From: Trypanosoma brucei
Taxonomy: Eukaryota
Direction: 5' to 3'
DNA length: 64,000 bases
NCBI GenBank assembly: GCA_000002445.1
Contig: CM000207.1
Coordinates: 448,001-512,000 of the forward strand
Each line of letters starts with the position of its first letter. Within the stretch, counting starts at the first letter, position 1. Position numbers and translations under genes: made by a program. Of this stretch, positions 5,489 through 63,433 are shown piece by piece. Under the pieces are notes generated by a model. It did no database searches. It saw only the letters and a program-made list of their open reading frames with translations, and was not told the DNA's origin.

Positions 5489-5520
5489 TGCGTCGTCGGA
5501 GCTCTTTCGCAAAACGGTTA

Positions 5521-5566
5521 CCTTCGTCGTGTGGAAGAGAACCAAAATAAAATCGAGCAAAAAAAA
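5521..5566 (-). promoter_or_regulatory. Polypyrimidine tract upstream of the ARF-like GTPase start
   Basis: The minus strand reads ttttttttgctcgattttattttggttctcttcc followed by an AG, ~30 nt before the ATG at 5488. The translated tract explains the spurious FFLLDFILVLF N-terminal extension of the track ORF. Confidence 0.4.

Positions 5567-9929: not shown

Positions 9930-9931
<2 letters not shown>

Positions 9932-9968
<37 letters not shown>
9932..9968. repeat. (TA)n microsatellite, ~18 units
   Basis: Direct read in the intergenic region upstream of the giant repeat gene. Confidence 0.9.
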
Positions 9969-9971
<3 letters not shown>

Positions 9972-10697
9972 CCGACGGAGTGAACAAACGAAATAAAAAC
10001 CCACTCAGCCGTGTCTTTGTCACGCCATGCCAGCTGCTTTCATGTAATGGGTGCTGCTTCCTTTACGTGCTCGACTACTCAAGGCAAAATAAGAAGATAA
10101 CAAACACAACCCAAATCCCCAGCGGCTCCAAACTTACCTTCCGCATTACAAATTGAATGAATTCACCCCAATAATGTTTCGGAGTCGATACCTCCCTGTA
10201 CTCAAGTAAACGTATGTATTAGTGTACATGCACTCTGGTGAATTGTAAACATCAGTTACATCTTCTTCCTCCTGTCAACCCTAAAGGCGGCTCTACACAT
10301 GCCATTAGGGAGGGAGGGTGAGGGGGTAAAAACGCGAACATTTATATGGTTTCCATTTTAACAGGTTTGCATATCGCTCGAGTGTTTCTAGTCTGCGACT
10401 TATCACCGTCACCAACTAAATCACACATAATCGGTGGTGTTCCTTTACCCTGTCTTCACTTCCTTCGCAACAGTTTAAGCATTTGGAATTGAAGTAAATA
10501 CACCTCCAGGTGTGTAAAAAATAATAATAATAATAATTAAGAACTAGCGTGTCCCTCTTGTATGTATGTACAAATATGGAAGAGGATTCACACTTTTAAC
10601 GAGGACATGCGTCTGCAGCACACGAGTGTCACGTTTCTAAAGGGTTGGACATACTAAGACCAGTGCAAAGTATGCAGAATCTTTCACCACAAGCCCC

Positions 10698-13600
10698 TCA
10701 TCGTTCATTGTAAAGGTGAATGGCATTTTCCTGCGGTGTGTACCTGCTGGGGACCCAAGAACGAACTTGAACCCTCGAGGCCACGGGTTGGACCCGAGTC
10801 ATCGAGAACCGCGAGGGTGTAGGACCGACAGGTGTGCAGTGGTAATGCGCATTGGCGACTCGTGAAGCGATCCTCCCCAACCTCCTCGCAGTTTGGGACG
10901 TCGAATCCACTGTTGTACTCAAAGCGTTAGAACCGGTTGGAGAATATGGTGGTCCCCAACTGCTGGAGTGGTGCGACGGAGAACCAGGGGAAAGGCGATT
11001 CCAGCCATCCCTTTCCGTTAGCGTTGACGTACTGTCTTGGTAACTCTGTTGAGTGAATACAGGAGAAGGCATCCTTCCGCTTGGCGCCGCTCTCATGGCT
11101 GATTGAAGTGTTGGTGCCCATGAATTTGGCACCTGTTGTTGGGGGGATAGGGAGCGCGAAGCTCCCTGCACTATTTCACGTTGGTGTTCTGAGAAGGATA
11201 GGCTAAGGCGTTTTCTTTGCGGAGGTGGGTGGGGTTGCAGATATTCACCGCGACCCAGCTGGCCAGGCCCCGGTTGGGTACTCATAAAAGCTGAGCCTTC
11301 TGAGTGCGGTTCGTACAAACCACTGGTTTCACTACGCACCTCAGCGACGGGCGGTAAAGTAACGCGCTGACGACCCAACTCACCACCCAGTCCGCTGTTG
11401 GCTTTATTTTGATGTTGCTTTGATCGATTATAAGCATTGGAGATGGTGCTTCTCTTGGCTGGTAACCGCGGTGGCCGTAAGTTGACACCATCACCAAACC
11501 CTAGGTCTGGATACAGCCCAAGATACACAAGCCGCTCACCCTGGAAATCGGGACCAAAAGGCTCAGAGTTGCCGGTGTCTTGTGCAAGATTCAGTTTTCG
11601 AGAGCTCCCTGATGATGACGGACGTGCGGCAGAAGCTATCGCATCCCTTGCAGCAACAGCTCTCAAACAAGATATACTACTTGCGGGTCTCTCACCAGTG
11701 ACAGAGGGGGTGAAACGACTCGAAGTGCGGAGGGCGGGGGAACCCAAAGATTCACTTCGGCCAGCACCTGGACGAAGGGAGCAGGGCGACCCACCATCGA
11801 CCACCCACGGACGCCGATTTTCAGCTTCTGCAGACTGCAAAGACACGTTACGACCAGTATTCTCCTCTTTCGTATCGTGAAGAACTCCATCGCAGCTGAA
11901 AACAACAGAGGGAGATGCAGCTGATTGATTCTTTTCGCGGTAATCAAATGGGGAACTGCCGACATCCCGCGCATTCAGGACGCAGTGTTGGAGATCACGG
12001 CGCCGCGGTGCAGAAAAACGTGACGGTGTCCCCGACAATTTCGAGTGACTACGCATAGATGATGACACATCGGGCAGAGCGCTAACACCTCCAGCTTCTT
12101 TATCGCTGACGTTAGCAATGTCACCGCTCATACTGATAGTTGAACCTACCCGTTCCGTGGACACTCCTTCCGCTTTTGGTGAGTCATCGGCATTGTTATT
12201 GGCTTCAGCAGTTTGACACCGCCTTCGATTATTTGGCAGTCGCGCAGTTTTTTCCTTTGATGATACACCGGCAGAGGCACACCCACTACCCAAAGCATTG
12301 TTCAGTGTGGTAATCACGGCATCACGTGCAGCGTCAACAGCCGAGTTTTTCACAGCACTCCTCAAAGTTGATCTAACAGCAGAGACTCCACCCCCCGTAG
12401 GGGCACCATCATAAATCATATTTGACATTTCTTCCGACGACCAGCGTATAAACTCCTCACCATCAACAACTAGCTGAGCGCAGACATCAACAGAAACGAC
12501 GATTGCTTCACCAAATACAACAGGTTCCACAACAGCAGATGAAAAACTTGTTAACTTACCGCCCCTCCGAGTGTCAACAGATCCCACTTCACCCCCCTTC
12601 ACCGACAACACATCAACATCCTTTGACAACGAGGAAATCTCTCGCATTTCATTGCAGGCATCAGCCTCAAAACGAAATACTTTCCCCTCAACACCAGAAT
12701 TATCTAATGTAAGGCGATTAGCAGAAGAGACGTCACTACCAACAGATGGTACACCATCAATTTCAAAATCCTCAACATCTTCAGGAGCAGCTGTTCCTGT
12801 AACATCAGTTTTACTTCCCTCGCCATCACAAACAAATCCATCACTTCCACCATCCTCTTTGCTCAGTTCCTTTGCATCAACATCAGCTGTGGGAATAGCT
12901 GCATCCTCTTTGCTCAGTTCCTTTGCATCATCATCAGCTGTAGGAATAGCTGCATCCTCTTTGCTCAGTTCCTTTGCATCATCATCGGCTGTGGGAATAG
13001 CTGCATCCTCTTTGCTCAGTTCCTTTGCATCATCATCAGCAGTGGGAATAGCTGCATCCTCTTTGCTCAGTTCCTTTGCATCATCATCAGCTGTAGGAAT
13101 AGCTGCATCCTCTTTGCTCAGTTCCTTTGCATCAACATCAGCTGTGGGAATAGCTGCATCCTCTTTGCTCAGTTCCTTTGCATCAACATCAGCTGTGGGA
13201 ATAGCTGCATCCTCTTTGCTCAGTTCCTTTGCATCATCATCAGCTGTAGGAATGGCTGCATCCTCTTTGCTCAGTTCCTTTGCATCATCATCAGCTGTGG
13301 GAATGGCTGCATCCTCTTTGCTCAGTTCCTTTGCATCATCATCAGCTGTAGGAATAGCTGCATCCTCTTTGCTCAGTTCCTTTGCATCATCATCGGCTGT
13401 GGGAATAGCTGCATCCTCTTTGCTCAGTTCCTTTGCATCATCATCAGCTGTGGGAATAGCTGCATCCTCTTTGCTCAGTTCCTTTGCATCATCATCGGCT
13501 GTGGGAATAGCTGCATCCTCTTTGCTCAGTTCCTTTGCATCAACATCAGCTGTGGGAATGGCTGCATCCTCTTTGCTCAGTTCCTTTGCATCATCATCAG

Positions 13601-16600
13601 CTGTGGGAATAGCTGCATCCTCTTTGCTCAGTTCCTTTGCATCATCATCAGCTGTAGGAATAGCTACATCCTCTTTGCTCAGTTCCTTTGCATCATCATC
13701 GGCTGTGGGAATAGCTGCATCCTCTTTGCTCAGTTCCTTTGCATCATCATCAGCTGTGGGAATGGCTGCATCCTCTTTGCTCAGTTCCTTTGCATCATCA
13801 TCGGCTGTGGGAATAGCTGCATCCTCTTTGCTCAGTTCCTTTGCATCATCATCAGCTGTGGGAATAGCTGCATCCTCTTTGCTCAGTTCCTTTGCATCAT
13901 CATCAGCTGTGGGAATGGCTGCATCCTCTTTGCTCAGTTCCTTTGCATCATCATCAGCTGTAGGAATAGCTGCATCCTCTTTGCTCAGTTCCTTTGCATC
14001 ATCATCGGCTGTGGGAATAGCTGCATCCTCTTTGCTCAGTTCCTTTGCATCAACATCAGCTGTGGGAATGGCTGCATCCTCTTTGCTCAGTTCCTTTGCA
14101 TCATCATCGGCTGTGGGAATAGCTGCATCCTCTTTGCTCAGTTCCTTTGCATCAACATCAGCTGTGGGAATGGCTGCATCCTCTTTGCTCAGTTCCTTTG
14201 CATCATCATCAGCTGTGGGAATAGCTGCATCCTCTTTGCTCAGTTCCTTTGCATCATCATCAGCTGTAGGAATAGCTACATCCTCTTTGCTCAGTTCCTT
14301 TGCATCATCATCGGCTGTGGGAATAGCTGCATCCTCTTTGCTCAGTTCCTTTGCATCAACATCAGCTGTGGGAATAGCTGCATCCTCTTTGCTCAGTTCC
14401 TTTGCATCATCATCAGCTGTGGGAATAGCTGCATCCTGTTTGCTCAGTTCCTTTGCATCATCATCGGCTGTGGGAATAGCTGCATCCTGTTTGCTCAGTT
14501 CCTTTGCATTATCATCAGCTGTGGGAATAGCTGCATCCTCTTTGCTCAGTTCCTTTGCATCAACATCAGCTGTGGGAATAGCTGCATCCTCTTTGCTCAG
14601 TTCCTTTGCATCAACATCAGCTGTGGGAATAGCTGCATCCTCTTTGCTCAGTTCCTTTGCATCAACATCAGCTGTGGGAATGGCTGCATCCTCTTTGCTC
14701 AGTTCCTTTGCATCAACATCAGCTGTGGGAATAGCTGCATCCTCTTTGCTCAGTTTCTTTGCATCAACATCAGCTGTGGGAATAGCTGCATCCTCTTTGC
14801 TCAGTTTCTTTGCATCAACATCAGCTGTGGGAATAGCTGCATCCTCTTTGCTCAGTTCCTTTGCATCATCATCAGCTGTGGGAATAGCTGCATCCTCTTT
14901 GCTCAGTTCCTTTGCATCATCATCAGCTGTGGGAATAGCTGCATCCTCTTTGCCCAGTTCCTTTGCATCATCATCAGCTGTGGGAATAGCTGCATCCTGT
15001 TTGCTCAGTTCCTTTGCATTATCATCAGCTGTGGGAATAGCTGCATCCTCTTTGCTCAGTTCCTTTGCATCATCATCAGCTGTGGGAATAGCTGCATCCT
15101 CTTTGCTCAGTTCCTTTGCATCAACATCAGCTGTGGGAATAGCTGCATCCTCTTTGCTCAGTTTCTTTGCATCAACATCAGCTGTGGGAATAGCTGCATC
15201 CTCTTTGCTCAGTTCCTTTGCATCAACATCAGCTGTGGGAATAGCTGCATCCTCTTTGCTCAGTTCCTTTGCATCAACATCAGCTGTGGGAATAGCTGCA
15301 TCCTCTTTGCTCAGTTCCTTTGCATCAACATCAGCTGTGGGAATAGCTGCATCCTCTTTGCTCAGTTCCTTTGCATCAACATCAGCTGTGGGAATAGCTG
15401 CATCCTCTTTGCTCAGTTTCTTTGCATCAACATCAGCTGTGGGAATGGCTGCATCCTCTTTGCTCAGTTCCTTTGCATCAACATCAGCTGTGGGAATGGC
15501 TGCATCCTCTTTGCTCAGTTCCTTTGCATCAACATCAGCTGTGGGAATAGCTGCATCCTCTTTGCTCAGTTTCTTTGCATCAACATCAGCTGTAGGAATA
15601 GCTGCATCCTCTTTGCTCAGTTCCTTTGCATCATCATCAGCTGTGGGAATAGCTGCATCCTCTTTGCTCAGTTCCTTTGCATCATCATCAGCTGTGGGAA
15701 TAGCTGCATCCTGTTTGCTCAGTTCCTTTGCATCATCATCAGCTGTGGGAATGGCTGCATCCTGTTTGCTCAGTTCCTTTGCATCAACATCAGCTGTGGG
15801 AATAGCTACATCCTCTTTGCTCAGTTCCTTTGCATCATCATCAGCTGTGGGAATAGCTACATCCTCTTTGCTCAGTTCCTTTGCATCATCATCAGCTGTG
15901 GGAATAGCTACATCCTCTTTGCTCAGTTCCTTTGCATCATCATCAGCTGTGGGAATAGCTGCATCCTCTTTGCTCAGTTCCTTTGCATCAACATCAGCTG
16001 TGGGAATAGCTACATCCTCTTTGCTCAGTTCCTTTGCATCATCATCAGCTGTGGGAATAGCTGCATCCTCTTTGCTCAGTTCCTTTGCATCAACATCAGC
16101 TGTGGGAATAGCTGCATCCTCTTTGCTCAGTTCCTTTGCATCAACATCAGCTGTGGGAATAGCTGCATCCTCTTTGCTCAGTTCCTTTGCATCATCATCG
16201 GCTGTGGGAATAGCTACATCCTCTTTGCTCAGTTCCTTTGCATCATCATCAGCTGTGGGAATGGCTGCATCCTGTTTGCTCAGTTCCTTTGCATCAACAT
16301 CAGCTGTGGGAATAGCTACATCCTCTTTGCTCAGTTCCTTTGCATCATCATCAGCTGTGGGAATAGCTACATCCTCTTTGCTCAGTTCCTTTGCATCATC
16401 ATCGGCTGTGGGAATAGCTGCATCCTGTTTGCTCAGTTCCTTTGCATCATCATCGGCTGTGGGAATAGCTGCATCCTGTTTGCTCAGTTCCTTTGCATCG
16501 TGAGCTGCATCATTATTTGTTTTATCGTTATCACTTCCTTTATTTTTCTGTTGGAGTTCAGTGATTGTGATGTTGTCAATGACCTTTTGCGCGTTGTCAG

Positions 16601-19229
16601 ATACGGCTTTATCCATTGATTGTTGTATTAGATTGGTTAAAATTGTTTCTTTACCTTCTTGTTCGCCATTTGTGTCCAAATGTTGCTGTTTGTTTATTGT
16701 TTTGCCGTGTTGTGGTGAGTCAAATTGATTGTGTACCGTGTGCTCATTTTCGTGTGTGGTAAGCGGTTTTTCTTGCTGGTTATTGTTTGTTTCTTTAGTT
16801 GTGAAGTCGTCGCAAGTTTCTGTACCCTCTTGTTTAATTTTGTCACTGGCTCGCCGGCTTGGAACTATTTCTTGAGTGGCAACGGTATCGTTAAGGGACG
16901 GAGTGCCACCCTCGCTACCTGTTGACCCCTTCAAAACCGTGTTTTCCCCTGCGTTGTTCAAGAGTGTTTGTTCCGCTGACAGGGCATCCCCTGGTTGTTG
17001 ATGCATGGGCTCTGTTGCTTGTATTGACAGCCGATTAGAAGAATTGATTTTGTGTTCTAAATTTGTCGGTGTTGTCCCCCCAGTTTGTTTTCCTGTATCT
17101 TGTTCTTTTGATGTCCTTTCCTCTCCCTCCACTATCGTGGTAGGCTGCATACCGTTCGCCAGTTCTTGTTCTGCATGTCGTTGATTCGGTGATTCGCGTG
17201 TCTGCCGCTCTTTCTCATCTATATTTTGGCATTTTCCCACAGGAGTGAGTTGATCCCTTGTGACAGTGGTGTGCTCTTGGCAATTTCCATTGTTAATTAA
17301 CAGTTGAGAAGTATTCACCCCTTGACAACCGTTGAATTGTTGCTCAGTTGCTTGACAAGGTGGCTGTTGGTACTGCTGGAGAGCCAGCCGAAGAGACATG
17401 ACCTCTTTCTGTATAGCAGTGGTTGCACTCATTATGTATTGTTCAGAGCTCTCCGTCGCGGTGGTTCCTGCAAATTGTTCTTCGGAGCAAACATTTGTTT
17501 CGTGTTCAACTGCACTAGGTACCGATTTTTCATTTCCTGGGACCAGTGCGTCTTCGTTGAACCCCAAAACTCTGTTAACTTGCGGGGCAAACACCTGCTC
17601 CACTTTATGTGTGTGTAGTGTCTGTTGTTGTTGGTTGCCCTTATTAGTCTCGACTTCGGTGGCCGTTCTCACATCACCGAGATGCCCATGCAGATATTCT
17701 GTGGTAACACTACTGCTGTGTTCTTCCCAAAAAGGCTGAGAAGTAGGCGGCTCCTTCGTTTTCACACTTTGTACTTGGCTCCTTTGGTTCTGTGAGGATT
17801 TCCTCCTTTTCCCCTCCAGAAGTTCATACAACTTGTGAACGTTGTTCAGTTCACATGTAGTAATGATGTCGCGAATTGCAGCATCACTGAGTTTGCCGTC
17901 GTGTTGTATGGATACCTCCACCATATTTGAATTTCTACAATTAAGTGCTACCGAAACATTTCCATGCGGTACCCCAAGAGAGTGTGCGATATCTTTTTCA
18001 TATGCCTGACATAGGTGAAACGGTACCACGCGCAACGACGTGTTTTGCTTGCTCTTGGGAAGGTCAAGGAGGAACATTGACTCTCTGGGGACCAACTTGG
18101 GCACCATCGCCCTTCGTGACATCTTTTGTCCCCTGCCTTCTCCCTTTTTAGGAGACATCTCACTGAGGGGCGAGGGAGTGCTCCGTTGCGACAACAGACA
18201 TGGCTTTCTAGGGCTTGAGCACGCTAATGTTGCTGTCAATGAGAACGTGTCACCCAACGCGTCATACTTGAGGCGTCGCAACTTGTACCGTATATGCTGC
18301 TCCGCCGTATACAGTGCCTCCCTATTTAATGTTTCCTCGAACGCTACATATTGTATGTCGTCAAGCATATCTTGACTCATTTCCTCCCATGCTTCTGCCG
18401 CGTCACCTGCACTGCTGGAGCGCTGTGAAGAGCAAGTAGCAGCGAACCCCGGGCACCCCCCTTTTGCTTCCATTTGGCTACTGCTCACTGCACCTGGGCT
18501 GGGGGTTCCCGTCCACCGGGATGTGTCGAATGTCTTCCCGGTGCTGTTCAATTTGTTTAAAACTTTACTGACTATTGCCCCTGTCTCCCCCTCGTCGCCA
18601 GCTGCACCACCCATATACACTTCGTTTCGCTGCGGCGAGCCTTCTTTCCTATCGCTGCCGCTCCGTTGATTTCCCTGTGTATTTCGGTCCTGTGCCACCA
18701 CAGCAATTTTGTACAAGTTCCCAACATGTCGTACGTTATCAGGCGTCAGAAGAGTGTAGGCGCCCTTGTTTTTATCAAAATATGTGATAAACACCACGCT
18801 TAGTTGTAAGAGCTCTGCGTTCTTCTGTATAGTTTCCAATACTGTCTCTATTGTCAGGGGGCCGTCGACATGCGGTGCCCCAACTAGCATAGAACCAACC
18901 AGCTCACCCGAGTCGGATATAAACTCGAGAGACCAGTTTTCTCCATTTATTGTGCCCTCCAGACGGCTTCCACTCGCACCCTGAGATCGGGGGTAACCCC
19001 CTTTGCCCCACGTGCCATCGTAGGTTGATTGCAGCGATATGTCACCCGACTGTTTTTCGAAACGAGACAATGGCCTACTGTAAGGTTCCAATAAATCCGC
19101 ACTGTACGTTGAAGGCGTGTCCCTGCCACTGTGTAGGTTTCTGCCGGCTTGGTTGGGGCGTTCGCTGCCGGTAGCTACACGACCATCTAAATGTCCGTCT
19201 CCCGGATGTGCCCTAGAGGTAAAATACAT
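10698..19229 (-). CDS. Giant tandem-repeat protein (2843 aa): unique N-terminal domain, ~70 x 17-aa acidic repeats DAKELSKEDAAIPTAD[D/V], long S-rich C-terminal region
   Basis: ATG verified at 19229-19227. Single uninterrupted frame of 8.5 kb on the gene strand. The repeat unit is exactly 51 nt and near-identical between copies. Flanking regions are non-repetitive and serine-rich. Confidence 0.75.
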   Translation of the reverse strand: MYFTSRAHPGDGHLDGRVATGSERPNQAGRNLHSGRDTPSTYSADLLEPYSRPLSRFEKQSGDISLQSTYDGTWGKGGYPRSQGASGSRLEGTINGENWSLEFISDSGELVGSMLVGAPHVDGPLTIETVLETIQKNAELLQLSVVFITYFDKNKGAYTLLTPDNVRHVGNLYKIAVVAQDRNTQGNQRSGSDRKEGSPQRNEVYMGGAAGDEGETGAIVSKVLNKLNSTGKTFDTSRWTGTPSPGAVSSSQMEAKGGCPGFAATCSSQRSSSAGDAAEAWEEMSQDMLDDIQYVAFEETLNREALYTAEQHIRYKLRRLKYDALGDTFSLTATLACSSPRKPCLLSQRSTPSPLSEMSPKKGEGRGQKMSRRAMVPKLVPRESMFLLDLPKSKQNTSLRVVPFHLCQAYEKDIAHSLGVPHGNVSVALNCRNSNMVEVSIQHDGKLSDAAIRDIITTCELNNVHKLYELLEGKRRKSSQNQRSQVQSVKTKEPPTSQPFWEEHSSSVTTEYLHGHLGDVRTATEVETNKGNQQQQTLHTHKVEQVFAPQVNRVLGFNEDALVPGNEKSVPSAVEHETNVCSEEQFAGTTATESSEQYIMSATTAIQKEVMSLRLALQQYQQPPCQATEQQFNGCQGVNTSQLLINNGNCQEHTTVTRDQLTPVGKCQNIDEKERQTRESPNQRHAEQELANGMQPTTIVEGEERTSKEQDTGKQTGGTTPTNLEHKINSSNRLSIQATEPMHQQPGDALSAEQTLLNNAGENTVLKGSTGSEGGTPSLNDTVATQEIVPSRRASDKIKQEGTETCDDFTTKETNNNQQEKPLTTHENEHTVHNQFDSPQHGKTINKQQHLDTNGEQEGKETILTNLIQQSMDKAVSDNAQKVIDNITITELQQKNKGSDNDKTNNDAAHDAKELSKQDAAIPTADDDAKELSKQDAAIPTADDDAKELSKEDVAIPTADDDAKELSKEDVAIPTADVDAKELSKQDAAIPTADDDAKELSKEDVAIPTADDDAKELSKEDAAIPTADVDAKELSKEDAAIPTADVDAKELSKEDAAIPTADDDAKELSKEDVAIPTADVDAKELSKEDAAIPTADDDAKELSKEDVAIPTADDDAKELSKEDVAIPTADDDAKELSKEDVAIPTADVDAKELSKQDAAIPTADDDAKELSKQDAAIPTADDDAKELSKEDAAIPTADDDAKELSKEDAAIPTADVDAKKLSKEDAAIPTADVDAKELSKEDAAIPTADVDAKELSKEDAAIPTADVDAKKLSKEDAAIPTADVDAKELSKEDAAIPTADVDAKELSKEDAAIPTADVDAKELSKEDAAIPTADVDAKELSKEDAAIPTADVDAKKLSKEDAAIPTADVDAKELSKEDAAIPTADDDAKELSKEDAAIPTADDNAKELSKQDAAIPTADDDAKELGKEDAAIPTADDDAKELSKEDAAIPTADDDAKELSKEDAAIPTADVDAKKLSKEDAAIPTADVDAKKLSKEDAAIPTADVDAKELSKEDAAIPTADVDAKELSKEDAAIPTADVDAKELSKEDAAIPTADVDAKELSKEDAAIPTADDNAKELSKQDAAIPTADDDAKELSKQDAAIPTADDDAKELSKEDAAIPTADVDAKELSKEDAAIPTADDDAKELSKEDVAIPTADDDAKELSKEDAAIPTADDDAKELSKEDAAIPTADVDAKELSKEDAAIPTADDDAKELSKEDAAIPTADVDAKELSKEDAAIPTADDDAKELSKEDAAIPTADDDAKELSKEDAAIPTADDDAKELSKEDAAIPTADDDAKELSKEDAAIPTADDDAKELSKEDAAIPTADDDAKELSKEDAAIPTADDDAKELSKEDVAIPTADDDAKELSKEDAAIPTADDDAKELSKEDAAIPTADVDAKELSKEDAAIPTADDDAKELSKEDAAIPTADDDAKELSKEDAAIPTADDDAKELSKEDAAIPTADDDAKELSKEDAAIPTADDDAKELSKEDAAIPTADDDAKELSKEDAAIPTADVDAKELSKEDAAIPTADVDAKELSKEDAAIPTADDDAKELSKEDAAIPTADDDAKELSKEDAAIPTADDDAKELSKEDAAIPTADDDAKELSKEDAAIPTADVDAKELSKEDGGSDGFVCDGEGSKTDVTGTAAPEDVEDFEIDGVPSVGSDVSSANRLTLDNSGVEGKVFRFEADACNEMREISSLSKDVDVLSVKGGEVGSVDTRRGGKLTSFSSAVVEPVVFGEAIVVSVDVCAQLVVDGEEFIRWSSEEMSNMIYDGAPTGGGVSAVRSTLRSAVKNSAVDAARDAVITTLNNALGSGCASAGVSSKEKTARLPNNRRRCQTAEANNNADDSPKAEGVSTERVGSTISMSGDIANVSDKEAGGVSALPDVSSSMRSHSKLSGTPSRFSAPRRRDLQHCVLNARDVGSSPFDYREKNQSAASPSVVFSCDGVLHDTKEENTGRNVSLQSAEAENRRPWVVDGGSPCSLRPGAGRSESLGSPALRTSSRFTPSVTGERPASSISCLRAVAARDAIASAARPSSSGSSRKLNLAQDTGNSEPFGPDFQGERLVYLGLYPDLGFGDGVNLRPPRLPAKRSTISNAYNRSKQHQNKANSGLGGELGRQRVTLPPVAEVRSETSGLYEPHSEGSAFMSTQPGPGQLGRGEYLQPHPPPQRKRLSLSFSEHQREIVQGASRSLSPQQQVPNSWAPTLQSAMRAAPSGRMPSPVFTQQSYQDSTSTLTERDGWNRLSPGSPSHHSSSWGPPYSPTGSNALSTTVDSTSQTARRLGRIASRVANAHYHCTPVGPTPSRFSMTRVQPVASRVQVRSWVPSRYTPQENAIHLYNER
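12850..16505 (-). repeat. 51-bp tandem repeat array (~71 units), coding, inside the giant ORF
   Basis: Plus-strand unit gctgtgggaatagctgcatcctctttgctcagttcctttgcatcatcatca is repeated head-to-tail. Only a handful of substitution types occur (atc/aac, agct/ggct, atagct/atggct, gcatcc/acatcc, tcctct/tcctgt, gttcc/gtttc) and they appear in blocks. Confidence 0.95.
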
Positions 19230-56244: not shown

Positions 56245-57348
56245 TCAGCGGCGCCGCCACACGGTGCAATGAGCAACCCCCAACTGGTAGCGACGAACAT
56301 GATCACGAATAAGAAATGCCTCATCTGTTTCACTGAGAAGATCAAAGTTCGCTCCCAATATTTCCTTCACCAATATTTCACTCGTTGACCCTTCTGCCCT
56401 TCCACCAACCCACGTATCCCGCTCCTCTACCGAACCCTCCCATGAATATGGTGAGGAGATCACGAGGATGCCACCAGAAACGAGCAGCAGCGGCAGCATA
56501 TCCAACAGCTTGCGAGGGTTGGGAACGCGACAGAGCAGATTCGCAACAAGCACAGCGTCAAAGCGCTCTCCTGAAGGAACACGGTACCATGAAGTTATAT
56601 CTTCATCATTTGTATCACCATGGTGGACGGGAGGCACAATATGACCTCTGCCATCATCGCCATCCGAATCAAGAAGATTCATTGCGTCGCCCCGATAGAA
56701 ACGGCACCGTTGAGGAACCGCCCCATCCGGTAGACATGCAGTGCGCTCCACTGTAATATCACCCTGCAAAGGGGCCTCATATTTGATTGGCTGTATGTTT
56801 GGGTTCAGCGCGCTTTGCACGACATTTCTCGCCATTTTGATGAATGCCACAGAGTAATCAATCCCGACAACCCGGCTGAAATATTTACTCATCTCCAGAG
56901 AGGAAGCACCAACCGCACACCCCAAATCAAGAGCACGTCTTTCCTTTCCATCATTAGCAGGCACAAATTCATGAAACTTGCGAGCGACTCGGATGGGATA
57001 ATCAAAGCTCTCAGATATCATACGAAGGTTTTGCGCAAAGCTTTCCGACGAGAGGGTGTAGTGAAACTCCATGTATTGCCGCACACTTGCATCACTTTCG
57101 TAAACGTTCGCCGGTTCTGAGGGACGACAGAGCGCCCAATGGGGAAACCACTTTCCAAAAAACCCAAACAGTTTACGAAGCACCCAAACCCCATCCGTCC
57201 AAGATAGGAACTTGTAGCGACAGCGCAGGAAGTGATCAAAAACGTCACGAAAGGCATATGTCGCTGCGGAGGAAACGACAGCCGTAAAAATGACACTACC
57301 CACTAAACATCTCGTCTCGGGAGCGGTACATTTGCACAACGCCAGCAT
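56245..57348 (-). CDS. Class I SAM-dependent methyltransferase (367 aa)
   Basis: ATG verified at 57348-57346. Motif I ALDLGCAVGASSLEM, followed by VVGIDYSVAFIKMARN and a later DAVLVANLL post-motif. Typical Rossmann-fold MTase layout. Confidence 0.7.
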   Translation of the reverse strand: MLALCKCTAPETRCLVGSVIFTAVVSSAATYAFRDVFDHFLRCRYKFLSWTDGVWVLRKLFGFFGKWFPHWALCRPSEPANVYESDASVRQYMEFHYTLSSESFAQNLRMISESFDYPIRVARKFHEFVPANDGKERRALDLGCAVGASSLEMSKYFSRVVGIDYSVAFIKMARNVVQSALNPNIQPIKYEAPLQGDITVERTACLPDGAVPQRCRFYRGDAMNLLDSDGDDGRGHIVPPVHHGDTNDEDITSWYRVPSGERFDAVLVANLLCRVPNPRKLLDMLPLLLVSGGILVISSPYSWEGSVEERDTWVGGRAEGSTSEILVKEILGANFDLLSETDEAFLIRDHVRRYQLGVAHCTVWRRR

Positions 57349-57462
57349 AACACAATAAGTTTGGAACCAATGAAAATAAAACTAGAAAATTCAACCTCAC
57401 TGTACGTGCAGTCAAGGAAGAAAAAGCAGGAAAACTGAGCACGGCATCACATTATTCACAAG

Positions 57463-57824
57463 TAGACACCGAAAAAAAAAAAGCAGTATAGAATACACGA
57501 CCCATAAGGCATCATTCAAAGGGGTTGTCAGATTGCTGAAAAAGGGAAATGAAGAGAAAATAATATAACATGGATATACACACAAAACAACAACAACATT
57601 AAAAACACCACAAAGGCCGAATCGAACGGCTGCGAGTCCAACTCGCCTACGGGTTTGAAGCCCGCACCCAGCACCAGCTGAGCTCATCGTGGCGCAACTT
57701 TTTCTTCCATCATCGGATTGAAATTCCATACTCGTGTCATACAGTCGCGTTTTGGGTGGTGACAAGTAACATTTCTCCTTCTCATTCCTTTAAATCCTTT
57801 TTCTTCATCTTTTAGTTGCAAGAA
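57463..57824 (-). repeat. 362-bp direct repeat, copy 1, containing a tRNA-Sec gene
   Basis: Matches 61300-61661 from tagacaccgaaaaaaaaaaagcagtatag through ttagttgcaagaa. Sequence diverges immediately outside both ends. Confidence 0.9.
57606..57693 (-). tRNA. Selenocysteine tRNA (anticodon UCA), copy 1
   Basis: Minus strand gccacgatgagctcagctggtgctgggtgcgggcttcaaacccgtaggcgagttggactcgcagccgttcgattcggcctttgtggtg. Folds with a 9-bp acceptor and 4-bp T stem (the eukaryotic tRNA-Sec 9/4 architecture). Anticodon stem gcggg/cccgt with loop cuUCAaa, identical to the human tRNA-Sec loop. 5-bp variable-arm stem, T-loop gttcgattc, discriminator g, followed by T5. Confidence 0.85.
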
Positions 57825-58181
57825 AAAAACAATAGGTTGGAAGAAAACAACAGAAGAGACAATACTTTGGTTGCGTGGAAGTTAGAGTGACTTGTCAAAG
57901 AAAAAATAAGCGTACCACTGGCCAATGGCCCTCCGGCGCGTAGCGGATACCACATCCGCAACACATGCTTATGCCAAGGGATCGTTAGCAGTATCAACAA
58001 TGGAACAGAAGGAAAGCAAATGAGTATATAAAGTAAAGAAGAAAAAAACAGTGGAGATGCGCCACCTCTGCCAGCTTGCACCTCTAAGGACTATGAGAGA
58101 GAAAGAGGGGAAAAGCGTCAGTGCGAAGAGTGGCTAAGCAAAACGCAGCAGAAGTTATAACTGTGAATAAAAATCGTGCCA

Positions 58182-61100
58182 TCACCACCTACGGTGGGCA
58201 CTGCATCGATAGACTGAGGAAGAACACTGAGACACGGCACGAGCACGCGGCCGTGATTGAAGAATTAAGGCACCCTCCGTTCTGAAACATATATCTGACA
58301 CAAGTTTGTTGACTCGAGCCCGGATTTCCGTACCGTCATCAAGCGTCTCCCTCATAAATTGAGCACATTCACAAGGTGATGGGACTGGGCTTACACACAG
58401 CCACCGTGTGATACGATTTGGTGGGATTGCCCAATGCTGTGCACATTCTTTTATCTCCTCCTCTTCCTTGTGAAGAAGCCTAAACTCTGCATCGTCAAGT
58501 GCTTCCAGCCACTTGTCCATACACCCCTCCAGTTTGGTTGTTGAAGGTCCCACATCCCCAATATGGTTATCATAAGGAACATCTTCACAATCGGTAGTTG
58601 TCGCATCACCGTGCTGAGAGCGACGATGCGCATCCACGAGGTTCGCCCGCCAGTGCATGAAAACGGTATGAACATCACCTGTGATTGTTGTAATGCGATT
58701 CGGCGGAGCGGGAGACGGTATGGCCAACGGCACAGCAGAGACATACTCAACAATAAAACACCGCTCCCCGGCACCGGCGAAATAGTTGTGGCTCCAGCTC
58801 ACCCACGGTAAGGGACTCAACGTGTTGCCACACGCCGTCGCGGTATCGGTTTCCCCGTCAAGGCGATCCTCCAACCACGTGTTGACAGCCGAAACCAACA
58901 TCTCCATTGCGCAGTGTGCAGCTTCCTCCTCGTCCAGAATGTCCTCGTCGTCCTCGATAAGAGAGGGCAGGTAGACCTTATCGACGCGTGCGCTAGCACT
59001 CAGTCTTAATTGTGAATGGATGAAGAAATTGGTGTTCAGGCCGCGTGCTTCTAGCTCTTCGAGCAGTGGCCCGTTGTCGCCAACAGTCTGGAAAGCAATG
59101 TCATATTCTTGCATCTGTAAGAAAACCCGCTCTACAAAACACAAGGTCTTCGGCATGTACATCGGTAGCTTCCGATGGCTTTCATGGTCAGTAGTGCTTT
59201 GCACAGAAACGATGGGATCGACTGGTGTGTCGTACGCACGCAAGTTGCCTAGCGCTGTGAGGATATGTTCAAGAAGTGAAGTGGTTTGGGCGTTCCCCCG
59301 CCGCTCCAGCATATCTCCAGAAACATCGACGCTCCACCAGTGAACGACGTTATGGGGGAGGTAACGCCCATTATCTATTGGTAGAACACTTGGTGTCATG
59401 GTGCGACCTAGTAACGCCGCCTCTTCCTCATCTTCCTCCTCTTCCTCATCGCTGTCACCCAAGCACACGTCCAACAGCACATCTTCTTTTCCCTCGACAA
59501 TGCGCTTAACAGAGGCTTCCACCGACTTCTCCCACCATGGCATGCGTAAAGAAAAAATGGGGGACTCAAGAAGCAATTTCTTGGCAGTAGGTCGTTCCGC
59601 CGGGTCTACTGCCATCATCCTGTCAATGCAATGCAAGAACTCTGCCGAAAGATTTCGTGCCCGCAGTGCCCTTGCCATTAGCTGAACACTTGGTGTGAGA
59701 ACCCATGGAGGCCACTGAGTTGTGCTTGTCACTCCCTCCTTTGTTTCATCCCCACTCAAGGAGGTATACCGGGTGTACTGTGTGCCACTGATGCGGTCGG
59801 TAGCGATGATGTTACCATCCTCTTTGTCCACCCCTACGCTGTGCTCACCACAAATACTCTCCTCGTGGCACCCGCGTCGAGCAGCAAGCTCCCGTATAGA
59901 GATTTGAAGCGCCTTGTCGTCTACAAGTGGAATCACCGCCAGTGTTGCCAGCGGTGGGTAGTCACCTCGCGCAACCCAAAGACGTGCTGCAACTGTGGCA
60001 TTACTTTCGGACTCCGTTGGTGACATAAAGGATGGAATCATACCGTTAAAAGTAACTGTCAACATGCCCTCATCCATTCCTAGACCCCCTCCAGTTAGAA
60101 ACACGTAGAAAAGCGCAGCTGCACTCCAAATATCAGACGCGTACGAGTACGGGCACCGGTGCCGATATCCCCAATATCGCGCAATTTCCGGCGGTAAGTA
60201 GGCGCAAGATCCAACCACTGTACGCTCAGTTTGGGAGTCCGAATCTGTTACCTTAGTTGCAATACCGAAGTCAGCAAGGATCAACTCGACGTTGCTTTCC
60301 CAGTTGGTGGGGGAGACCCTGTTGCGGAGGAGTATGTTGGATGGTTTGATGTCTCTGTGCAGTAACCCGTTTCCGTGCAAGCACGCGAGCCCGCTTAGTA
60401 TCTGTGACATCCAGCATACGAGATGTTCCTCAGCTATGTAAGAGCCATACAGTTTGAGCAGTTCCCCGAAGGTGCCGCCGATCCCCACCTCAACGACCAT
60501 GTGCACGGAAGTCGGTGCTGCCACTGTGCGAGGAGATGATGTTGGCATACAGTCGGTACCGTATAATGGATCGTGTTCCACAAAAACACCATAAAAACGT
60601 TCGAGCCGGGGATGTCGAGGAAGCGTGGCAATGACTTGGGCTTCACGTAAAAGGTTGCACAACATGGGGCAGTGGTTTAACACTGCACAACCAACACCAC
60701 TTGGTGTCAGGTGCAATTCATTCATTGCACCTTCACGACCGCAAACACTCGATAGCAGCATGATCGGAGAAGGAAGTTGCGTGAAACTTTTCGCAGCAAA
60801 GAAACGAGTGGGCCGTAGACGGCTCTGCAACACGGTCACAGAGCTAAAGCTCCCGGTGCCTAACTTCAAAACAGTGTTAAAAAGGCAATCGATGGAATAA
60901 CTGCTGTTGAAGATGATACCGTCAATGTCGTCTCCCTCACCCCAATCACCAGTGGCTTCCCCACACGAGGCACAAGCGTGTTGTCCAGACCGAAAACCAC
61001 TGCTTCCCCCGGATAGCAGGCGATCCACGGGGTACTCGTGCAGTGACGATTTTGAACCCGAGCCCAATAGTGGAAAACGCAACCCCCCATTGGGTCCAAC

Positions 61101-61196
61101 CGTTCGCTTTACGAGATCATCACACCAGGAGAGGGGGACACCATCAAGAATATGCGAGGGAGGGAACAAAATGTTGACAGTCAGATACTCCTCCAT
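58182..61196 (-). CDS. Serine/threonine protein kinase (1004 aa) with a long C-terminal extension
   Basis: ATG verified at 61196-61194. Gly-loop LGTGSFSSV, FFAAKSF (AxK), HRD LLHRDIKPSNILL, DFG LADFGIATKV, APE CAYLPPEIA, subdomain IX SDIWSAAALFYVFLTGG. Acidic DSDEEEEEDEEE in the C-terminal region. Confidence 0.85.
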   Translation of the reverse strand: MEEYLTVNILFPPSHILDGVPLSWCDDLVKRTVGPNGGLRFPLLGSGSKSSLHEYPVDRLLSGGSSGFRSGQHACASCGEATGDWGEGDDIDGIIFNSSYSIDCLFNTVLKLGTGSFSSVTVLQSRLRPTRFFAAKSFTQLPSPIMLLSSVCGREGAMNELHLTPSGVGCAVLNHCPMLCNLLREAQVIATLPRHPRLERFYGVFVEHDPLYGTDCMPTSSPRTVAAPTSVHMVVEVGIGGTFGELLKLYGSYIAEEHLVCWMSQILSGLACLHGNGLLHRDIKPSNILLRNRVSPTNWESNVELILADFGIATKVTDSDSQTERTVVGSCAYLPPEIARYWGYRHRCPYSYASDIWSAAALFYVFLTGGGLGMDEGMLTVTFNGMIPSFMSPTESESNATVAARLWVARGDYPPLATLAVIPLVDDKALQISIRELAARRGCHEESICGEHSVGVDKEDGNIIATDRISGTQYTRYTSLSGDETKEGVTSTTQWPPWVLTPSVQLMARALRARNLSAEFLHCIDRMMAVDPAERPTAKKLLLESPIFSLRMPWWEKSVEASVKRIVEGKEDVLLDVCLGDSDEEEEEDEEEAALLGRTMTPSVLPIDNGRYLPHNVVHWWSVDVSGDMLERRGNAQTTSLLEHILTALGNLRAYDTPVDPIVSVQSTTDHESHRKLPMYMPKTLCFVERVFLQMQEYDIAFQTVGDNGPLLEELEARGLNTNFFIHSQLRLSASARVDKVYLPSLIEDDEDILDEEEAAHCAMEMLVSAVNTWLEDRLDGETDTATACGNTLSPLPWVSWSHNYFAGAGERCFIVEYVSAVPLAIPSPAPPNRITTITGDVHTVFMHWRANLVDAHRRSQHGDATTTDCEDVPYDNHIGDVGPSTTKLEGCMDKWLEALDDAEFRLLHKEEEEIKECAQHWAIPPNRITRWLCVSPVPSPCECAQFMRETLDDGTEIRARVNKLVSDICFRTEGALILQSRPRARAVSQCSSSVYRCSAHRRW

Positions 61197-61299
61197 GTAC
61201 AGAAATTGCTACGTGAAGGGGGTAAAGGGGAAAAAAAAACGAGAGGTTTCGGTGGTAGCGAATTCTTAATAGTGTGGTGTTGTACAATGAGATTAAAAA

Positions 61300-61661
61300 T
61301 AGACACCGAAAAAAAAAAAGCAGTATAGAATACACGACCCATAAGGCATCATTCAAAGGGGTTGTCAGATTGCTGAAAAAGGGAAATGAAGAGAAAATAA
61401 TATAACATGGATATACACACAAAACAACAACAACATTAAAAACACCACAAAGGCCGAATCGAACGGCTGCGAGTCCAACTCGCCTACGGGTTTGAAGCCC
61501 GCACCCAGCACCAGCTGAGCTCATCGTGGCGCAACTTTTTCTTCCATCATCGGATTGAAATTCCATACTCGTGTCATACAGTCGCGTTTTGGGTGGTGAC
61601 AAGTAACATTTCTCCTTCTCATTCCTTTAAATCCTTTTTCTTCATCTTTTAGTTGCAAGAA
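61300..61661 (-). repeat. 362-bp direct repeat, copy 2, containing a tRNA-Sec gene
   Basis: Near-identical to 57463-57824. Lies ~100 nt upstream of the kinase ATG at 61196. Confidence 0.9.
61443..61530 (-). tRNA. Selenocysteine tRNA (anticodon UCA), copy 2
   Basis: Sequence and fold identical to copy 1. Followed by a T5 run on the minus strand (aaaaa at 61438-61442 on plus). Confidence 0.85.
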
Positions 61662-62836
61662 CAGGTTGAGGCATGATAGCGTGTTGTACTGTATCCCACG
61701 TTCCGTCTAATGTGAAAAGAACAAATGTAAGAGTGCCTCGCAGAGAACTCATGGCACGGTCATACTCGTTGCCTTTGATGAATCATACATGAGTGTACCC
61801 TTTTGTACATTAATTTATTTTTTTTTCTAAGCGGGTATCTCATCCCTCAAGTGAAGTTACTAAAAGTTGCTTGGGTGTGAACTCAGTTTCGAGATGACTG
61901 AGAATCCAACTTGGCATACGGTGGCCACGGAGCGATGAGGCACATTCACCATCTGTGGACCCCATCCCTTCAAGAGTTTCGTAGGACTGTATATATGGGT
62001 CACTTAAATACGACCTCTACGAAAACAACTTGGACACGGGACAAAACAAAAAACAAAGAGCAAAGAAAGAAAGAAAGAGGAGAACCAAGAGGGAAAAGGA
62101 GCGGGTGAATGAAGTGATGGATTGATTGAATTGAAGGATGACAGCAAACACGCAATAATAGTGAGTGCGCCATACAACAAAATGAAGAAATTGAGAAGAG
62201 GGATGGTGGGAGGAAAAAAGAAAAGAACGTTTTCATTCAATAGTCAACGAAAAGGCCAACAGAAAATGGAAGGGATTCGGAGTCACTTTTCTCGCACCGC
62301 CTCCCATACCGCTGGAACGGTTCAATTACGAAGGGCAGCGGTAACACGAGGAAAAAGCAGGTGGAAAGAAAAACATTTTTGACCGCTCATAGCGCTAAGA
62401 AAAAAAAAAAGTGACCTCTCCAACAAGCTGCAAACCCCCACAACCGACAGGGGTAGTCACTGCAATGCCCTCCCTTCCCCCCCCCCCCAGGAACACGCTT
62501 ACATTTGCTTTGCTTTTCGTTTCTTTTTGATAGGTATGTCATCGATGCTGTACCTGACGCTATATTTGCACTACTAATACGTATACAAAAATACATACAT
62601 ACTCATTTACTTATAGTTAGTTGCACCATTTTGGCACTTGAAAAGCCACTCCCTCGACCGTTAATGCCAGCACAGAAGGTGCATAATGTATGTGTAAAAT
62701 AGTACCTTATAAAACAAATACGAAAACACGCGCGCGCGAGTAAAGGCAAAGGAGTTAGGGTGCGATGCTGTACGAGGAAGCACCACTCTATTTCTTTAAC
62801 TTTTTCCTCTAGTTCCCGGAAAGAACAGTGCTCGAA

Positions 62837-63433
62837 TTATTTCCGTGGATAAAGGGCAACGGTACGCCAGAAATTGTACACCTTCAGCTGGTTGTGGAAC
62901 CGGCTTTCCTCACTGGGATCGTGAGAATGATCCAAAACAAATGTAACCACAAGTCGATCGGTGAATTTCATCTTCATCTGGCCAATGCGCTCCGATGAAA
63001 TGCCGCAACAGGCAGCCACATCTTCCTTGATGGCTCGCTCCAGAGCCACAGACATATTAGAGAGAGCTTGCGACCAACGTGCCCCGCGGAACCGGATCGT
63101 GTGGGTAACGGCCGTTCTCCCGGCAACTGGTTGAAGAGACCGTACGGAAACGTTTGTACCCGATTCACGACGAGAAGTACTGCGGTTATCAAAAGAGAAA
63201 ATCCTGTCGCCACCACTCCTGGAAGAAACTCTCTCGGTATAGTTGTTGTACACCGCTCCCTGCTTTTCCCCATTCGATCCAGAAAAGGAAGCCTTGCGAG
63301 GATTCATGCCATCCGCTGTGAGAGGAGGGGCAACGTGACCTCTGTTTACAGACGCCCGGCGGTTGGCGACCCAATCCGGCATACGATGAACAACCTCTCG
63401 TTGGCTATAGTTAACACCGTTCTGTGTTGTCAT
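62837..63433 (-). CDS. Hypothetical protein (198 aa), S/R-rich
   Basis: ATG verified at 63433-63431. On the gene strand. No recognisable motif. Confidence 0.35.
   Translation of the reverse strand: MTTQNGVNYSQREVVHRMPDWVANRRASVNRGHVAPPLTADGMNPRKASFSGSNGEKQGAVYNNYTERVSSRSGGDRIFSFDNRSTSRRESGTNVSVRSLQPVAGRTAVTHTIRFRGARWSQALSNMSVALERAIKEDVAACCGISSERIGQMKMKFTDRLVVTFVLDHSHDPSEESRFHNQLKVYNFWRTVALYPRK

What the first reader, a model, noticed from the sequence alone, without database searches (positions are those of the whole stretch)
57463..61661. Two identical tRNA-Sec (UCA) genes on the mRNA strand inside a Pol II-type gene array, bracketing a kinase gene
Both 88-nt copies fold into the eukaryotic selenocysteine tRNA architecture: 9-bp acceptor, 4-bp T stem, long variable arm and a cuUCAaa anticodon loop identical to human tRNA-Sec. 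Each is followed by a T5 run. In trypanosomatids, tRNA genes usually cluster at strand-switch or transcription-unit boundaries and are Pol III transcribed. Here the two genes sit internally, co-oriented with 20+ protein-coding genes. This matches the unusual arrangement reported for African trypanosomes, where tandem tRNA-Sec genes lie within a polycistronic unit and show alpha-amanitin-sensitive (Pol II-dependent) transcription. This is the only RNA-gene locus in the window and the strongest organism and locus identifier.
Basis: partly seen in the sequence, partly recalled or inferred. Interest (0 to 1): 0.8.

Follow-up and report, generated by a model that had tools for sequence, protein, structure and literature searches.

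The report
Known trypanosome selenocysteine tRNA gene pair

Summary
ARAGORN and Rfam both call two identical tRNA-Sec (UCA) genes on the - strand at 57606-57693 and 61443-61530. Each lies in a 362-bp block that is 100% identical between copies. They flank a 1004-aa protein kinase ORF and are co-oriented with every large ORF in the window.

The fold is the eukaryotic 9/4 tRNA-Sec type: 6-bp D stem, CUUCAAA anticodon loop, 5-bp variable arm and 4-bp T stem. One U.U mismatch sits in the acceptor stem. A T5 run follows each gene.

This is the published T. brucei locus. The probe and four RACE primers of Aeby et al. 2010 match exactly. The intergenic lengths (833 and 1640 bp) equal theirs. The chromosome 9 coordinates published in 2009 equal the window coordinates plus 448,000. 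That paper showed Pol II-dependent, promoter-less expression by experiment.

I found the same arrangement (FAZ1-domain gene, tRNA-Sec, kinase, tRNA-Sec, methyltransferase) in five further Trypanosoma species. The tRNA is nearly invariant there, but the flanks and the T run are not conserved. A 2025 paper already describes the synteny between T. cruzi and T. brucei.

Verdict: interpretation supported, already known, low interest.

The parts
61443..61530 (-). tRNA-Sec (UCA), the copy upstream in the direction of transcription. It lies in the 1640-bp intergenic region between the FAZ1-domain ORF and the kinase ORF.
   Evidence: ARAGORN; Rfam RF01852 at 72.3 bits; identical to the other copy; equals published chr9 509,443-509,530.
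57606..57693 (-). tRNA-Sec (UCA), the downstream copy. It lies in the 833-bp intergenic region between the kinase ORF and the methyltransferase ORF. This is the copy Aeby et al. used for their tagged constructs.
   Evidence: 9/4 fold checked; equals published chr9 505,606-505,693; the 'shorter intergenic region'.
61300..61661 (-). 362-bp block identical to 57463-57824. It holds 131 nt 5' of the tRNA, the 88-nt tRNA and 143 nt 3' of it.
   Evidence: Outside the tRNA (plus or minus 3-5 nt) the block does not align to the orthologous loci of other species.
57463..57824 (-). 362-bp block identical to 61300-61661.
58182..61196 (-). Protein kinase gene (1004 aa) bracketed by the two tRNA genes; published as Tb09.160.1090.
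   Evidence: Pfam Pkinase E 2.1e-31. The 3'-RACE primers for Tb09.160.1090 map at 59011-59033 and 59041-59059. Orthologues at 39-45% identity in seven Trypanosoma species.
56245..57348 (-). Methyltransferase-domain gene (367 aa) downstream of the cluster; published as Tb09.160.1070.
   Evidence: Pfam Methyltransf_23 and related families. The 5'-RACE primers map at 57062-57082 and 57117-57134. The same neighbour is present in L001, L002, L004 and L005.
62837..63433 (-). FAZ1_cons-domain ORF (198 aa as listed) upstream of the cluster.
   Evidence: Pfam PF23398 E 1.3e-13. FAZ1_cons genes lie upstream in L003, L004 and L005.
57601..57605 (-). T5 run directly 3' of the tRNA discriminator base. The equivalent run in the other copy is at 61438-61442.
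   Evidence: Not conserved in the genus: T10-12 in T. cruzi, only TT in T. rangeli and T. conorhini, TTT in T. theileri.
57536..57549 (-). Polypyrimidine tract TTTCCCTTTTTC followed by AG, 57-70 nt 3' of the tRNA and inside the duplicated block. The equivalent site in the other copy is 61373-61386. I predict it is a trans-splice acceptor for the downstream gene; this is inference only.
   Evidence: Pattern found; the sequence context is. Not checked against the mapped sites in Fig. 3 of Aeby et al., because figures are not held.

Best explanation
These are the two functional nuclear selenocysteine tRNA genes of Trypanosoma brucei (TREU927 chromosome 9, about 505.6 and 509.4 kb). They have no working promoter of their own. 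RNA polymerase II reads through them as part of the long polycistronic precursor that also carries the FAZ1-domain gene, the kinase gene and the methyltransferase gene. [quoted passage not shown] It is then cut out of that spacer RNA by the ordinary tRNA end-processing enzymes. Polymerase dependence and promoter-lessness are shown by published experiment. Gene identity, fold, position, co-orientation and conservation are shown here. The processing pathway is inferred: Aeby et al. proposed RNase P and 3' nucleases. The two copies and about 270 bp of flank are kept identical, most likely by gene conversion or a recent duplication; this too is inference.
For: Gene identity and fold.

Identity of the locus with the published one:
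- exact matches of 5 published oligonucleotides (sequences);
- intergenic lengths of 833 and 1640 bp;
- published coordinates offset by exactly 448,000 for both copies.

Placement: both genes lie between co-oriented ORFs, with no strand switch anywhere in the 64 kb.

Published experiments (PMC2943599):
- transcription is maximally inhibited at 10 ug/ml alpha-amanitin, like tubulin, whereas tRNA-Ile and U6 are largely resistant;
- the steady-state level falls on RPB9 RNAi and rises on Pol III RNAi;
- a tagged copy is silent in the rDNA spacer unless a Pol I promoter is induced, but is expressed when placed in the VDAC polycistron;
- RT-PCR shows one RNA spanning the spacer and both flanking ORFs.

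Conservation, from my own comparison:
- In T. cruzi, T. rangeli, T. melophagium, T. theileri and T. conorhini, tRNA-Sec genes lie on the coding strand on both sides of the orthologous kinase.
- The 88-nt tRNA differs by at most 1 nt, and both substitutions preserve structure: C-G to U-G in the D stem, and one change in the variable-arm loop.
- By contrast, the kinases are only 39-45% identical and the tRNA flanks do not align between species. This indicates strong purifying selection on the tRNA itself.
- The T run after the tRNA is not conserved, as expected if Pol III termination is not needed.
- Box B deviates from the consensus at positions 1 and 11, and Box A carries an extra base (visible in the sequence).
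Against: Nothing in the sequence contradicts it. Some caveats remain.
- The T. brucei genes do carry a T5 run directly after the tRNA, and a T loop with G53 T54 T55 C56 A58 C61 intact. By sequence alone a Pol III contribution cannot be excluded.
- The RPB9 RNAi effect on the steady-state level in Aeby et al. was modest, about 25%.
- The processing route has not been demonstrated.
Confidence: 0.93

Rival explanations
1. Mixed transcription: Pol II read-through supplies most tRNA-Sec, but Pol III also initiates at the genes through the residual Box B-like T arm and terminates at the T5 run, as reported for Leishmania major.
For: A T5 run lies directly 3' of both copies. The T loop TTCGATT with flanking G and C keeps the invariant Box B positions. 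Dual Pol II and Pol III transcription of L. major tRNA-Sec is cited.
Against: In T. brucei the tRNA-Sec level rose rather than fell on Pol III RNAi. The tagged gene was silent without an external promoter. Box A and Box B deviate from the trypanosomatid consensus. The T run is missing in T. rangeli, T. conorhini and T. theileri although the tRNA is conserved there.
Confidence: 0.05
2. Conventional Pol III tRNA genes that merely happen to lie between protein-coding genes, with their own internal promoter and T5 terminator.
For: All other nuclear tRNAs are Pol III products. The T5 run is present.
Against: The experiments on this very locus speak against it. The genes lie in 833-bp and 1640-bp spacers between co-oriented genes, not in the gene-free regions of 5 kb or more where other T. 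brucei tRNA genes lie. No other Pol III gene is nearby.
Confidence: 0.015
3. One or both copies are inert relics of a duplication: tRNA-like sequences that are not used.
For: Duplicated blocks in intergenic DNA can be neutral. A 43-nt tRNA-Sec fragment does exist in T. theileri (L004 10393-10435).
Against: Both copies are full length, are 100% identical and score 72 bits. The tRNA is held at 99-100% identity across six species while the flanks have diverged beyond alignment. The RNA is detected on northern blots with a probe that matches both copies. Which copy contributes how much has not been resolved.
Confidence: 0.005

Closest known systems
Trypanosoma brucei tRNA-Sec genes on chromosome 9 (loci chr09-II and chr09-III of Padilla-Mejia et al. 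2009; Aeby et al. 2010, NAR 38:5833)
   Same: It is the same DNA. Coordinates, oligonucleotides, intergenic lengths, the flanking kinase (Tb09.160.1090) and Tb09.160.1070 all match.
   Different: Nothing differs. The window adds no feature that those papers lack.
Trypanosoma cruzi tRNA-Sec and kinase tandem array (Genome Biol Evol 2025, PMC12204681)
   Same: The tRNA sequence is identical. The tRNA genes are interspersed with the orthologous Ser/Thr kinase, a methyltransferase gene follows the cluster, and all are on the coding strand.
   Different: In T. cruzi the whole unit of about 3.5 kb (tRNA plus kinase) is tandemly amplified: 11 tRNA copies reported in Dm28c, 4 in my 21-kb locus. T. brucei has one kinase and only a 362-bp repeat on each side. 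The T run is T10-12 rather than T5.
Leishmania major tRNA-Sec gene (chromosome 6)
   Same: It is also embedded in a Pol II polycistron on the coding strand.
   Different: It is a single copy with different flanking genes and seven sequence differences. [quoted passage not shown]
Vertebrate tRNA-Sec genes (Pol III, type 3-like external promoter: TATA box, PSE and activator element, plus internal Box B)
   Same: They share the 9/4 cloverleaf, the 6-bp D stem, the CUUCAAA anticodon loop and a non-consensus Box A.
   Different: They are transcribed by Pol III from upstream U6-like elements. The trypanosome genes have no such elements reported and depend on Pol II read-through.
Intron-encoded or polycistron-encoded small RNAs released by processing (snoRNAs; intronic tRNAs in C. 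elegans and Drosophila)
   Same: A stable small RNA without its own promoter is excised from a Pol II precursor. Aeby et al. draw this analogy themselves.
   Different: Here the host is an intergenic spacer of a trans-spliced polycistron, not a cis-spliced intron, and the product is a tRNA.

Membership tests
Eukaryotic selenocysteine tRNA (Rfam RF01852) | Covariance-model score above the family's gathering score | tested here: met
   72.3 bits against 47, full model 1-91, both copies. ARAGORN also calls tRNA-SeC.
Eukaryotic selenocysteine tRNA (Rfam RF01852) | Anticodon UCA (reads UGA) in a 7-nt loop | tested here: met
   The loop is CUUCAAA and the anticodon TCA starts at position 36 of the 88-nt gene.
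Eukaryotic selenocysteine tRNA (Rfam RF01852) | 9-bp acceptor stem plus 4-bp T stem (the 9/4 fold; 13 bp coaxial rather than 12) | tested here: met
   The acceptor stem has 9 positions with 8 standard pairs and one U8.U mismatch. The T stem is GCCG/CGGC, 4 bp. The 7/5 alternative needs an A.C pair.
Eukaryotic selenocysteine tRNA (Rfam RF01852) | 6-bp D stem with a 4-nt loop, and a long variable arm | tested here: met
   D stem CUCAGC/GCUGGG with loop UGGU. Variable arm GCGAG/CUCGC with loop UUGGA.
Eukaryotic selenocysteine tRNA (Rfam RF01852) | Charged with serine, then converted by PSTK and SepSecS, and delivered by a dedicated elongation factor | not testable with these tools
   This is biochemistry. 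[quoted passage not shown]
Polycistron-embedded, Pol II-transcribed trypanosomatid tRNA-Sec (Aeby et al. 2010) | Located in a short spacer between co-oriented protein-coding genes, on the coding strand, away from strand-switch regions and tRNA clusters | tested here: met
   The spacers are 833 and 1640 bp. All large ORFs across the 64 kb are on the - strand. There are no other tRNA or Rfam genes.
Polycistron-embedded, Pol II-transcribed trypanosomatid tRNA-Sec (Aeby et al. 2010) | Sequence identity with the published locus | tested here: met
   5 of 5 published oligonucleotides match exactly. The intergenic lengths are identical. The published coordinates equal the window coordinates plus 448,000.
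Polycistron-embedded, Pol II-transcribed trypanosomatid tRNA-Sec (Aeby et al. 2010) | Transcription sensitive to low alpha-amanitin and to Pol II knock-down but not Pol III knock-down, with no autonomous promoter | not testable with these tools
   Published experimental results for this locus; I took them from the paper and did not re-derive them.
Canonical Pol III (type 2) tRNA gene | Consensus internal Box A and Box B | tested here: not met
   Box B reads CGTTCGATTCG against GGTTCGANTCC, so positions 1 and 11 differ. Box A has an inserted base. Both are visible in the sequence and were reported. Sequence alone does not prove loss of function.
Canonical Pol III (type 2) tRNA gene | Oligo-T terminator just 3' of the gene, conserved among orthologues | tested here: inconclusive
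   T5 is present in T. brucei and T10-12 in T. cruzi. Only TT or TTT is found in T. rangeli, T. conorhini and T. theileri, and TGCTTTT in some T. melophagium copies.

The most novel reading that the evidence does not exclude
The repeated unit may be more than a passenger tRNA. It could be a 'tRNA plus splice-acceptor cassette'. In T. brucei, T. rangeli and T. conorhini the duplicated, within-species homogenised block always carries about 140-170 nt 3' of the tRNA and ends roughly 60-380 bp (about 100-125 bp in four of the six cases) before the next start codon. In T. brucei it includes a polypyrimidine-AG 70 nt after the tRNA. If so, both downstream genes (kinase and methyltransferase) would receive the same 5' processing signal and the same first part of their 5' UTR. 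Excision of the tRNA could then be mechanistically coupled to 5'-end formation of those mRNAs, a nuclear analogue of mitochondrial tRNA punctuation. That coupling might explain why tRNA-Sec has stayed linked to this kinase throughout the genus.
Probability: 0.1. Interest if true: 0.45.

Novelty: already known. Interest (0 to 1): 0.1.

Why it matters
The locus is the classic exception to the rule that nuclear tRNAs are made by RNA polymerase III, and it identifies the window as T. brucei chromosome 9. Both points have been in the literature since 2009-2010, and the cross-species synteny since 2025. The scan's value here is only as a positive control: a reader without tools recognised a real and unusual locus and interpreted it correctly.

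Tried and rejected
- I looked for a degenerate second kinase copy in the long spacer (61662-62836), which would show that T. brucei descends from a T. cruzi-like tandem array. tblastn against the kinase, methyltransferase and FAZ1-domain proteins gave only chance hits (E>=0.08), and blastn found no other repeat. No remnant is detectable.
- I looked for further RNA genes, to test 'the only RNA-gene locus in the window'. The Rfam gathering and E<=0.1 scans found only the two tRNA-Sec genes plus (TA)n-driven sub-threshold miRNA hits at 9911-9982. Trypanosome RNAs absent from Rfam would be missed.
- The exact-sequence look-up of the window's kinase returned nothing. The homology search then gave a 100%-identical unnamed cluster and the named orthologues.
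- The unconstrained MFE fold merges the variable and T arms into one long hairpin, at -40.1 kcal/mol with z = -2.6. I rejected it as a guide, because the covariance model and the hand-checked cloverleaf fit the tRNA-Sec architecture.
- The 7/5 fold is rejected because it needs an A.C pair.
- The Padilla-Mejia 2015 paper on L. major is not held, so its claim is cited second hand.
- Covariation statistics were not attempted. There are only three distinct tRNA sequences with two substitutions among six species.


Full report
**1. The observation**

ARAGORN finds exactly two tRNA genes in the 64-kb window. Both are tRNA-SeC with anticodon TCA, on the - strand, at 57606-57693 and 61443-61530. Rfam's tRNA-Sec model (RF01852) matches both over its full length at 72.3 bits, against a gathering score of 47, with E 7.5e-13.

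The two 88-nt sequences are identical. They sit inside a 362-bp block that is 100% identical between 57463-57824 and 61300-61661, with a spacing of 3837 bp.

I checked the cloverleaf pair by pair:
- The acceptor stem has 9 positions, with 8 standard pairs and one U8.U mismatch.
- The D stem is 6 bp with a 4-nt loop.
- The anticodon stem is 6 bp with loop CUUCAAA, which is also the Rfam consensus loop.
- The variable arm is 5 bp.
- The T stem is 4 bp, and the discriminator is G.

An unconstrained MFE fold differs from the cloverleaf in the variable and T region. That is usual for tRNAs and carries no weight against the covariance-model match.

Each gene is followed at once by TTTTT. The ORF between the genes (58182-61196, -, 1004 aa) has a protein kinase domain. 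Every ORF of 150 aa or more that is not a nested antisense ORF is on the - strand, about 21 in all. No other Rfam family is found, even at E<=0.1, apart from (TA)n noise. The only nuance is the U.U mismatch in the acceptor stem.

**2. What the locus is**

The window is Trypanosoma brucei TREU927 chromosome 9, and the locus is the one studied by Aeby et al. 2010 (PMC2943599). Four lines of evidence agree:
- Their tRNA-Sec northern probe matches at 57673-57693 and 61510-61530.
- Their two 3'-RACE primers for Tb09.160.1090 match inside the kinase ORF. Their two 5'-RACE primers for Tb09.160.1070 match inside the downstream ORF. All matches are exact (primer sequences, mapping).
- They give the two intergenic regions as 1640 and 833 bp. 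The window gives 61197-62836 = 1640 bp and 57349-58181 = 833 bp.
- Padilla-Mejia et al. 2009 (PMC2695483) give the genes at chr9 505,606-505,693 and 509,443-509,530. Both equal the window coordinates plus 448,000.

The downstream ORF (56245-57348) is a methyltransferase-domain protein, and the upstream ORF (62837-63433) carries a FAZ1_cons domain.

**3. How it works**

The mechanism has been established by experiment for this very DNA:
- Nascent transcription of tRNA-Sec is maximally inhibited at 10 ug/ml alpha-amanitin, like tubulin, while tRNA-Ile and U6 are largely resistant.
- The steady-state level falls by about 25% on RPB9 (Pol II) RNAi and rises on Pol III RNAi.
- A tagged copy with 308 nt of 5' flank and 205 nt of 3' flank is silent in the rDNA spacer unless an upstream Pol I promoter is induced. 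It is expressed and correctly processed when placed in the unrelated VDAC polycistron.
- RT-PCR shows a single RNA spanning the spacer and both flanking ORFs.
- No histone-variant marks of transcription-unit boundaries lie at the genes.

So the tRNA has no working promoter and is excised from the Pol II polycistronic precursor. The excision route is the authors' proposal and has not been shown: trans-splicing and polyadenylation of a spacer fragment, followed by RNase P and 3' nucleases.

From the sequence I can add one point. Box B reads CGTTCGATTCG, which differs from the consensus at positions 1 and 11, and Box A carries an extra base. Both were already noted in 2009.

**4. Independent comparative check**

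The kinase has orthologues at 39-45% identity in T. congolense, T. cruzi, T. rangeli, T. melophagium, T. theileri, T. conorhini and T. grayi. I fetched five of these loci. In every one, tRNA-Sec genes lie on the coding strand on both sides of the kinase, and all score above the Rfam threshold. The methyltransferase gene lies downstream in T. cruzi, T. rangeli, T. theileri and T. conorhini. FAZ1_cons genes lie upstream in T. melophagium, T. theileri and T. conorhini. Gene order in each species is:
- T. cruzi: a tandem array with a period of about 3.5 kb.
- T. rangeli and T. conorhini: tRNA, kinase, tRNA, methyltransferase, as in T. brucei.
- T. theileri: one tRNA before the kinase and two after it.
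- T. melophagium: several kinase copies with two tRNAs per spacer.

The tRNA is identical in T. brucei and T. cruzi and differs by a single base elsewhere. One change turns a C-G pair into U-G in the D stem, and the other is G to U in the variable-arm loop. Both are neutral for the structure.

By contrast, only the tRNA plus or minus 3-5 nt of the T. brucei 362-bp block aligns to any other species. Within each species the copies and their near flanks are almost identical: 100% over 362 bp in T. brucei, 98.9% over 285 bp in T. rangeli and 96% over 260 bp in T. conorhini. That pattern points to strong purifying selection on the tRNA and to concerted evolution, or repeated recent duplication, of the flanks.

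The T run after the tRNA is not conserved. It is T5 in T. brucei and T10-12 in T. cruzi, but only TT in T. rangeli and T. conorhini and TTT in T. theileri. This fits a gene that does not depend on Pol III termination.

I found no relic of a second kinase copy in the long spacer.

**5. Comparison with what is known**

Everything essential is published:
- The two genes and their coordinates, together with the deviations in Box A and Box B, were reported in 2009.
- The Pol II mechanism and the context were reported in 2010.
- A 2025 paper (PMC12204681) describes the T. cruzi expansion, the kinase, methyltransferase and hypothetical-protein synteny with T. brucei, the identity of the T. cruzi and T. 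brucei tRNAs, and 'two or more copies in most Trypanosoma genomes'.

My five-species comparison extends the synteny picture a little, to T. rangeli, T. conorhini, T. theileri and T. melophagium. It adds the non-conservation of the T run and the homogenisation of the flanks within each species. These are small refinements of a known system.

**6. Rivals**

A purely Pol III origin is contradicted by the published experiments. A minor Pol III contribution, as in Leishmania, cannot be excluded from sequence, because T. brucei retains T5 and the invariant T-loop positions. However, the rise in tRNA-Sec on Pol III RNAi and the silence of the promoter-less transgene argue against it. An inert relic is excluded by the near-perfect conservation of the tRNA against fully diverged flanks.

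**7. Verdict**

The novelty class is 'already known' and the interest is low (0.1).

The most novel reading I cannot exclude concerns the homogenised block. It may act as a combined tRNA plus splice-acceptor cassette that couples tRNA excision to 5' processing of the two downstream mRNAs. A polypyrimidine-AG lies 70 nt after each tRNA, inside the repeat. The evidence is only positional, and I rate its probability at about 0.1.

Noticed in passing
window 12851-16499 (within ORF 10698-19229, - strand): There is a 51-bp tandem repeat of 71.5 copies at 96% match, which encodes a 17-aa repeat inside a 2843-aa ORF with a weak FAZ1_cons domain. The 1310-aa '+' ORF at 12571-16503 is its antisense artefact.
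   Followed up: partly
window 57412-57765 (-) and 61144-61602 (-): Mechanical ORFs of 117 and 152 aa run across the two tRNA-Sec genes. The first probably corresponds to the 'Tb09.160.1080 hypothetical protein, unlikely' that the 2009 paper says overlaps a tRNA-Sec gene. Both are spurious.
   Followed up: partly
window 57536-57549 and 61373-61386 (- strand): The polypyrimidine tract TTTCCCTTTTTC plus AG lies 57-70 nt 3' of each tRNA, inside the identical block. If it is used as a trans-splice acceptor, the kinase and methyltransferase mRNAs would share the first ~74 nt of their 5' UTRs. I did not check it against mapped sites.
   Followed up: partly
L002 317-601 and 3947-4228; L005 5366-5623 and 9223-9481; window blocks: Within each species the tRNA-flanking blocks are 96-100% identical, but between T. 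brucei and the other species nothing beyond the tRNA plus or minus 5 nt aligns. This is a signature of concerted evolution. In all three single-kinase species the repeat extends mainly 3' of the tRNA.
   Followed up: partly
L004 (T. theileri) 10393-10435: A 43-nt fragment is 100% identical to the 3' half of tRNA-Sec. It lies between the two full copies downstream of the kinase and looks like a truncated pseudo-copy.
   Followed up: no
L003 (T. melophagium) 966-14092: The kinase is tandemly repeated, with two tRNA-Sec genes about 1.25 kb apart in each spacer. There are six tRNA-Sec genes in 14.8 kb.
   Followed up: no
window 9911-9982: A (TA)n microsatellite gives sub-threshold matches to the mir-297 and mir-1277 models on both strands. 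These are chance hits driven by low complexity.
   Followed up: yes
window 62837-63433 and 10698-19229; L003-L005 upstream genes: FAZ1_cons-domain genes recur in this region. There are two in the window and one to three upstream of the tRNA-Sec and kinase cluster in T. melophagium, T. theileri and T. conorhini.
   Followed up: no
window 62470-62495 (- strand view): A run of 12 G followed by a G-rich stretch lies in the long spacer upstream of tRNA-Sec copy 2. A T11 run lies about 70 nt further downstream on the same strand. Its significance is unknown.
   Followed up: no
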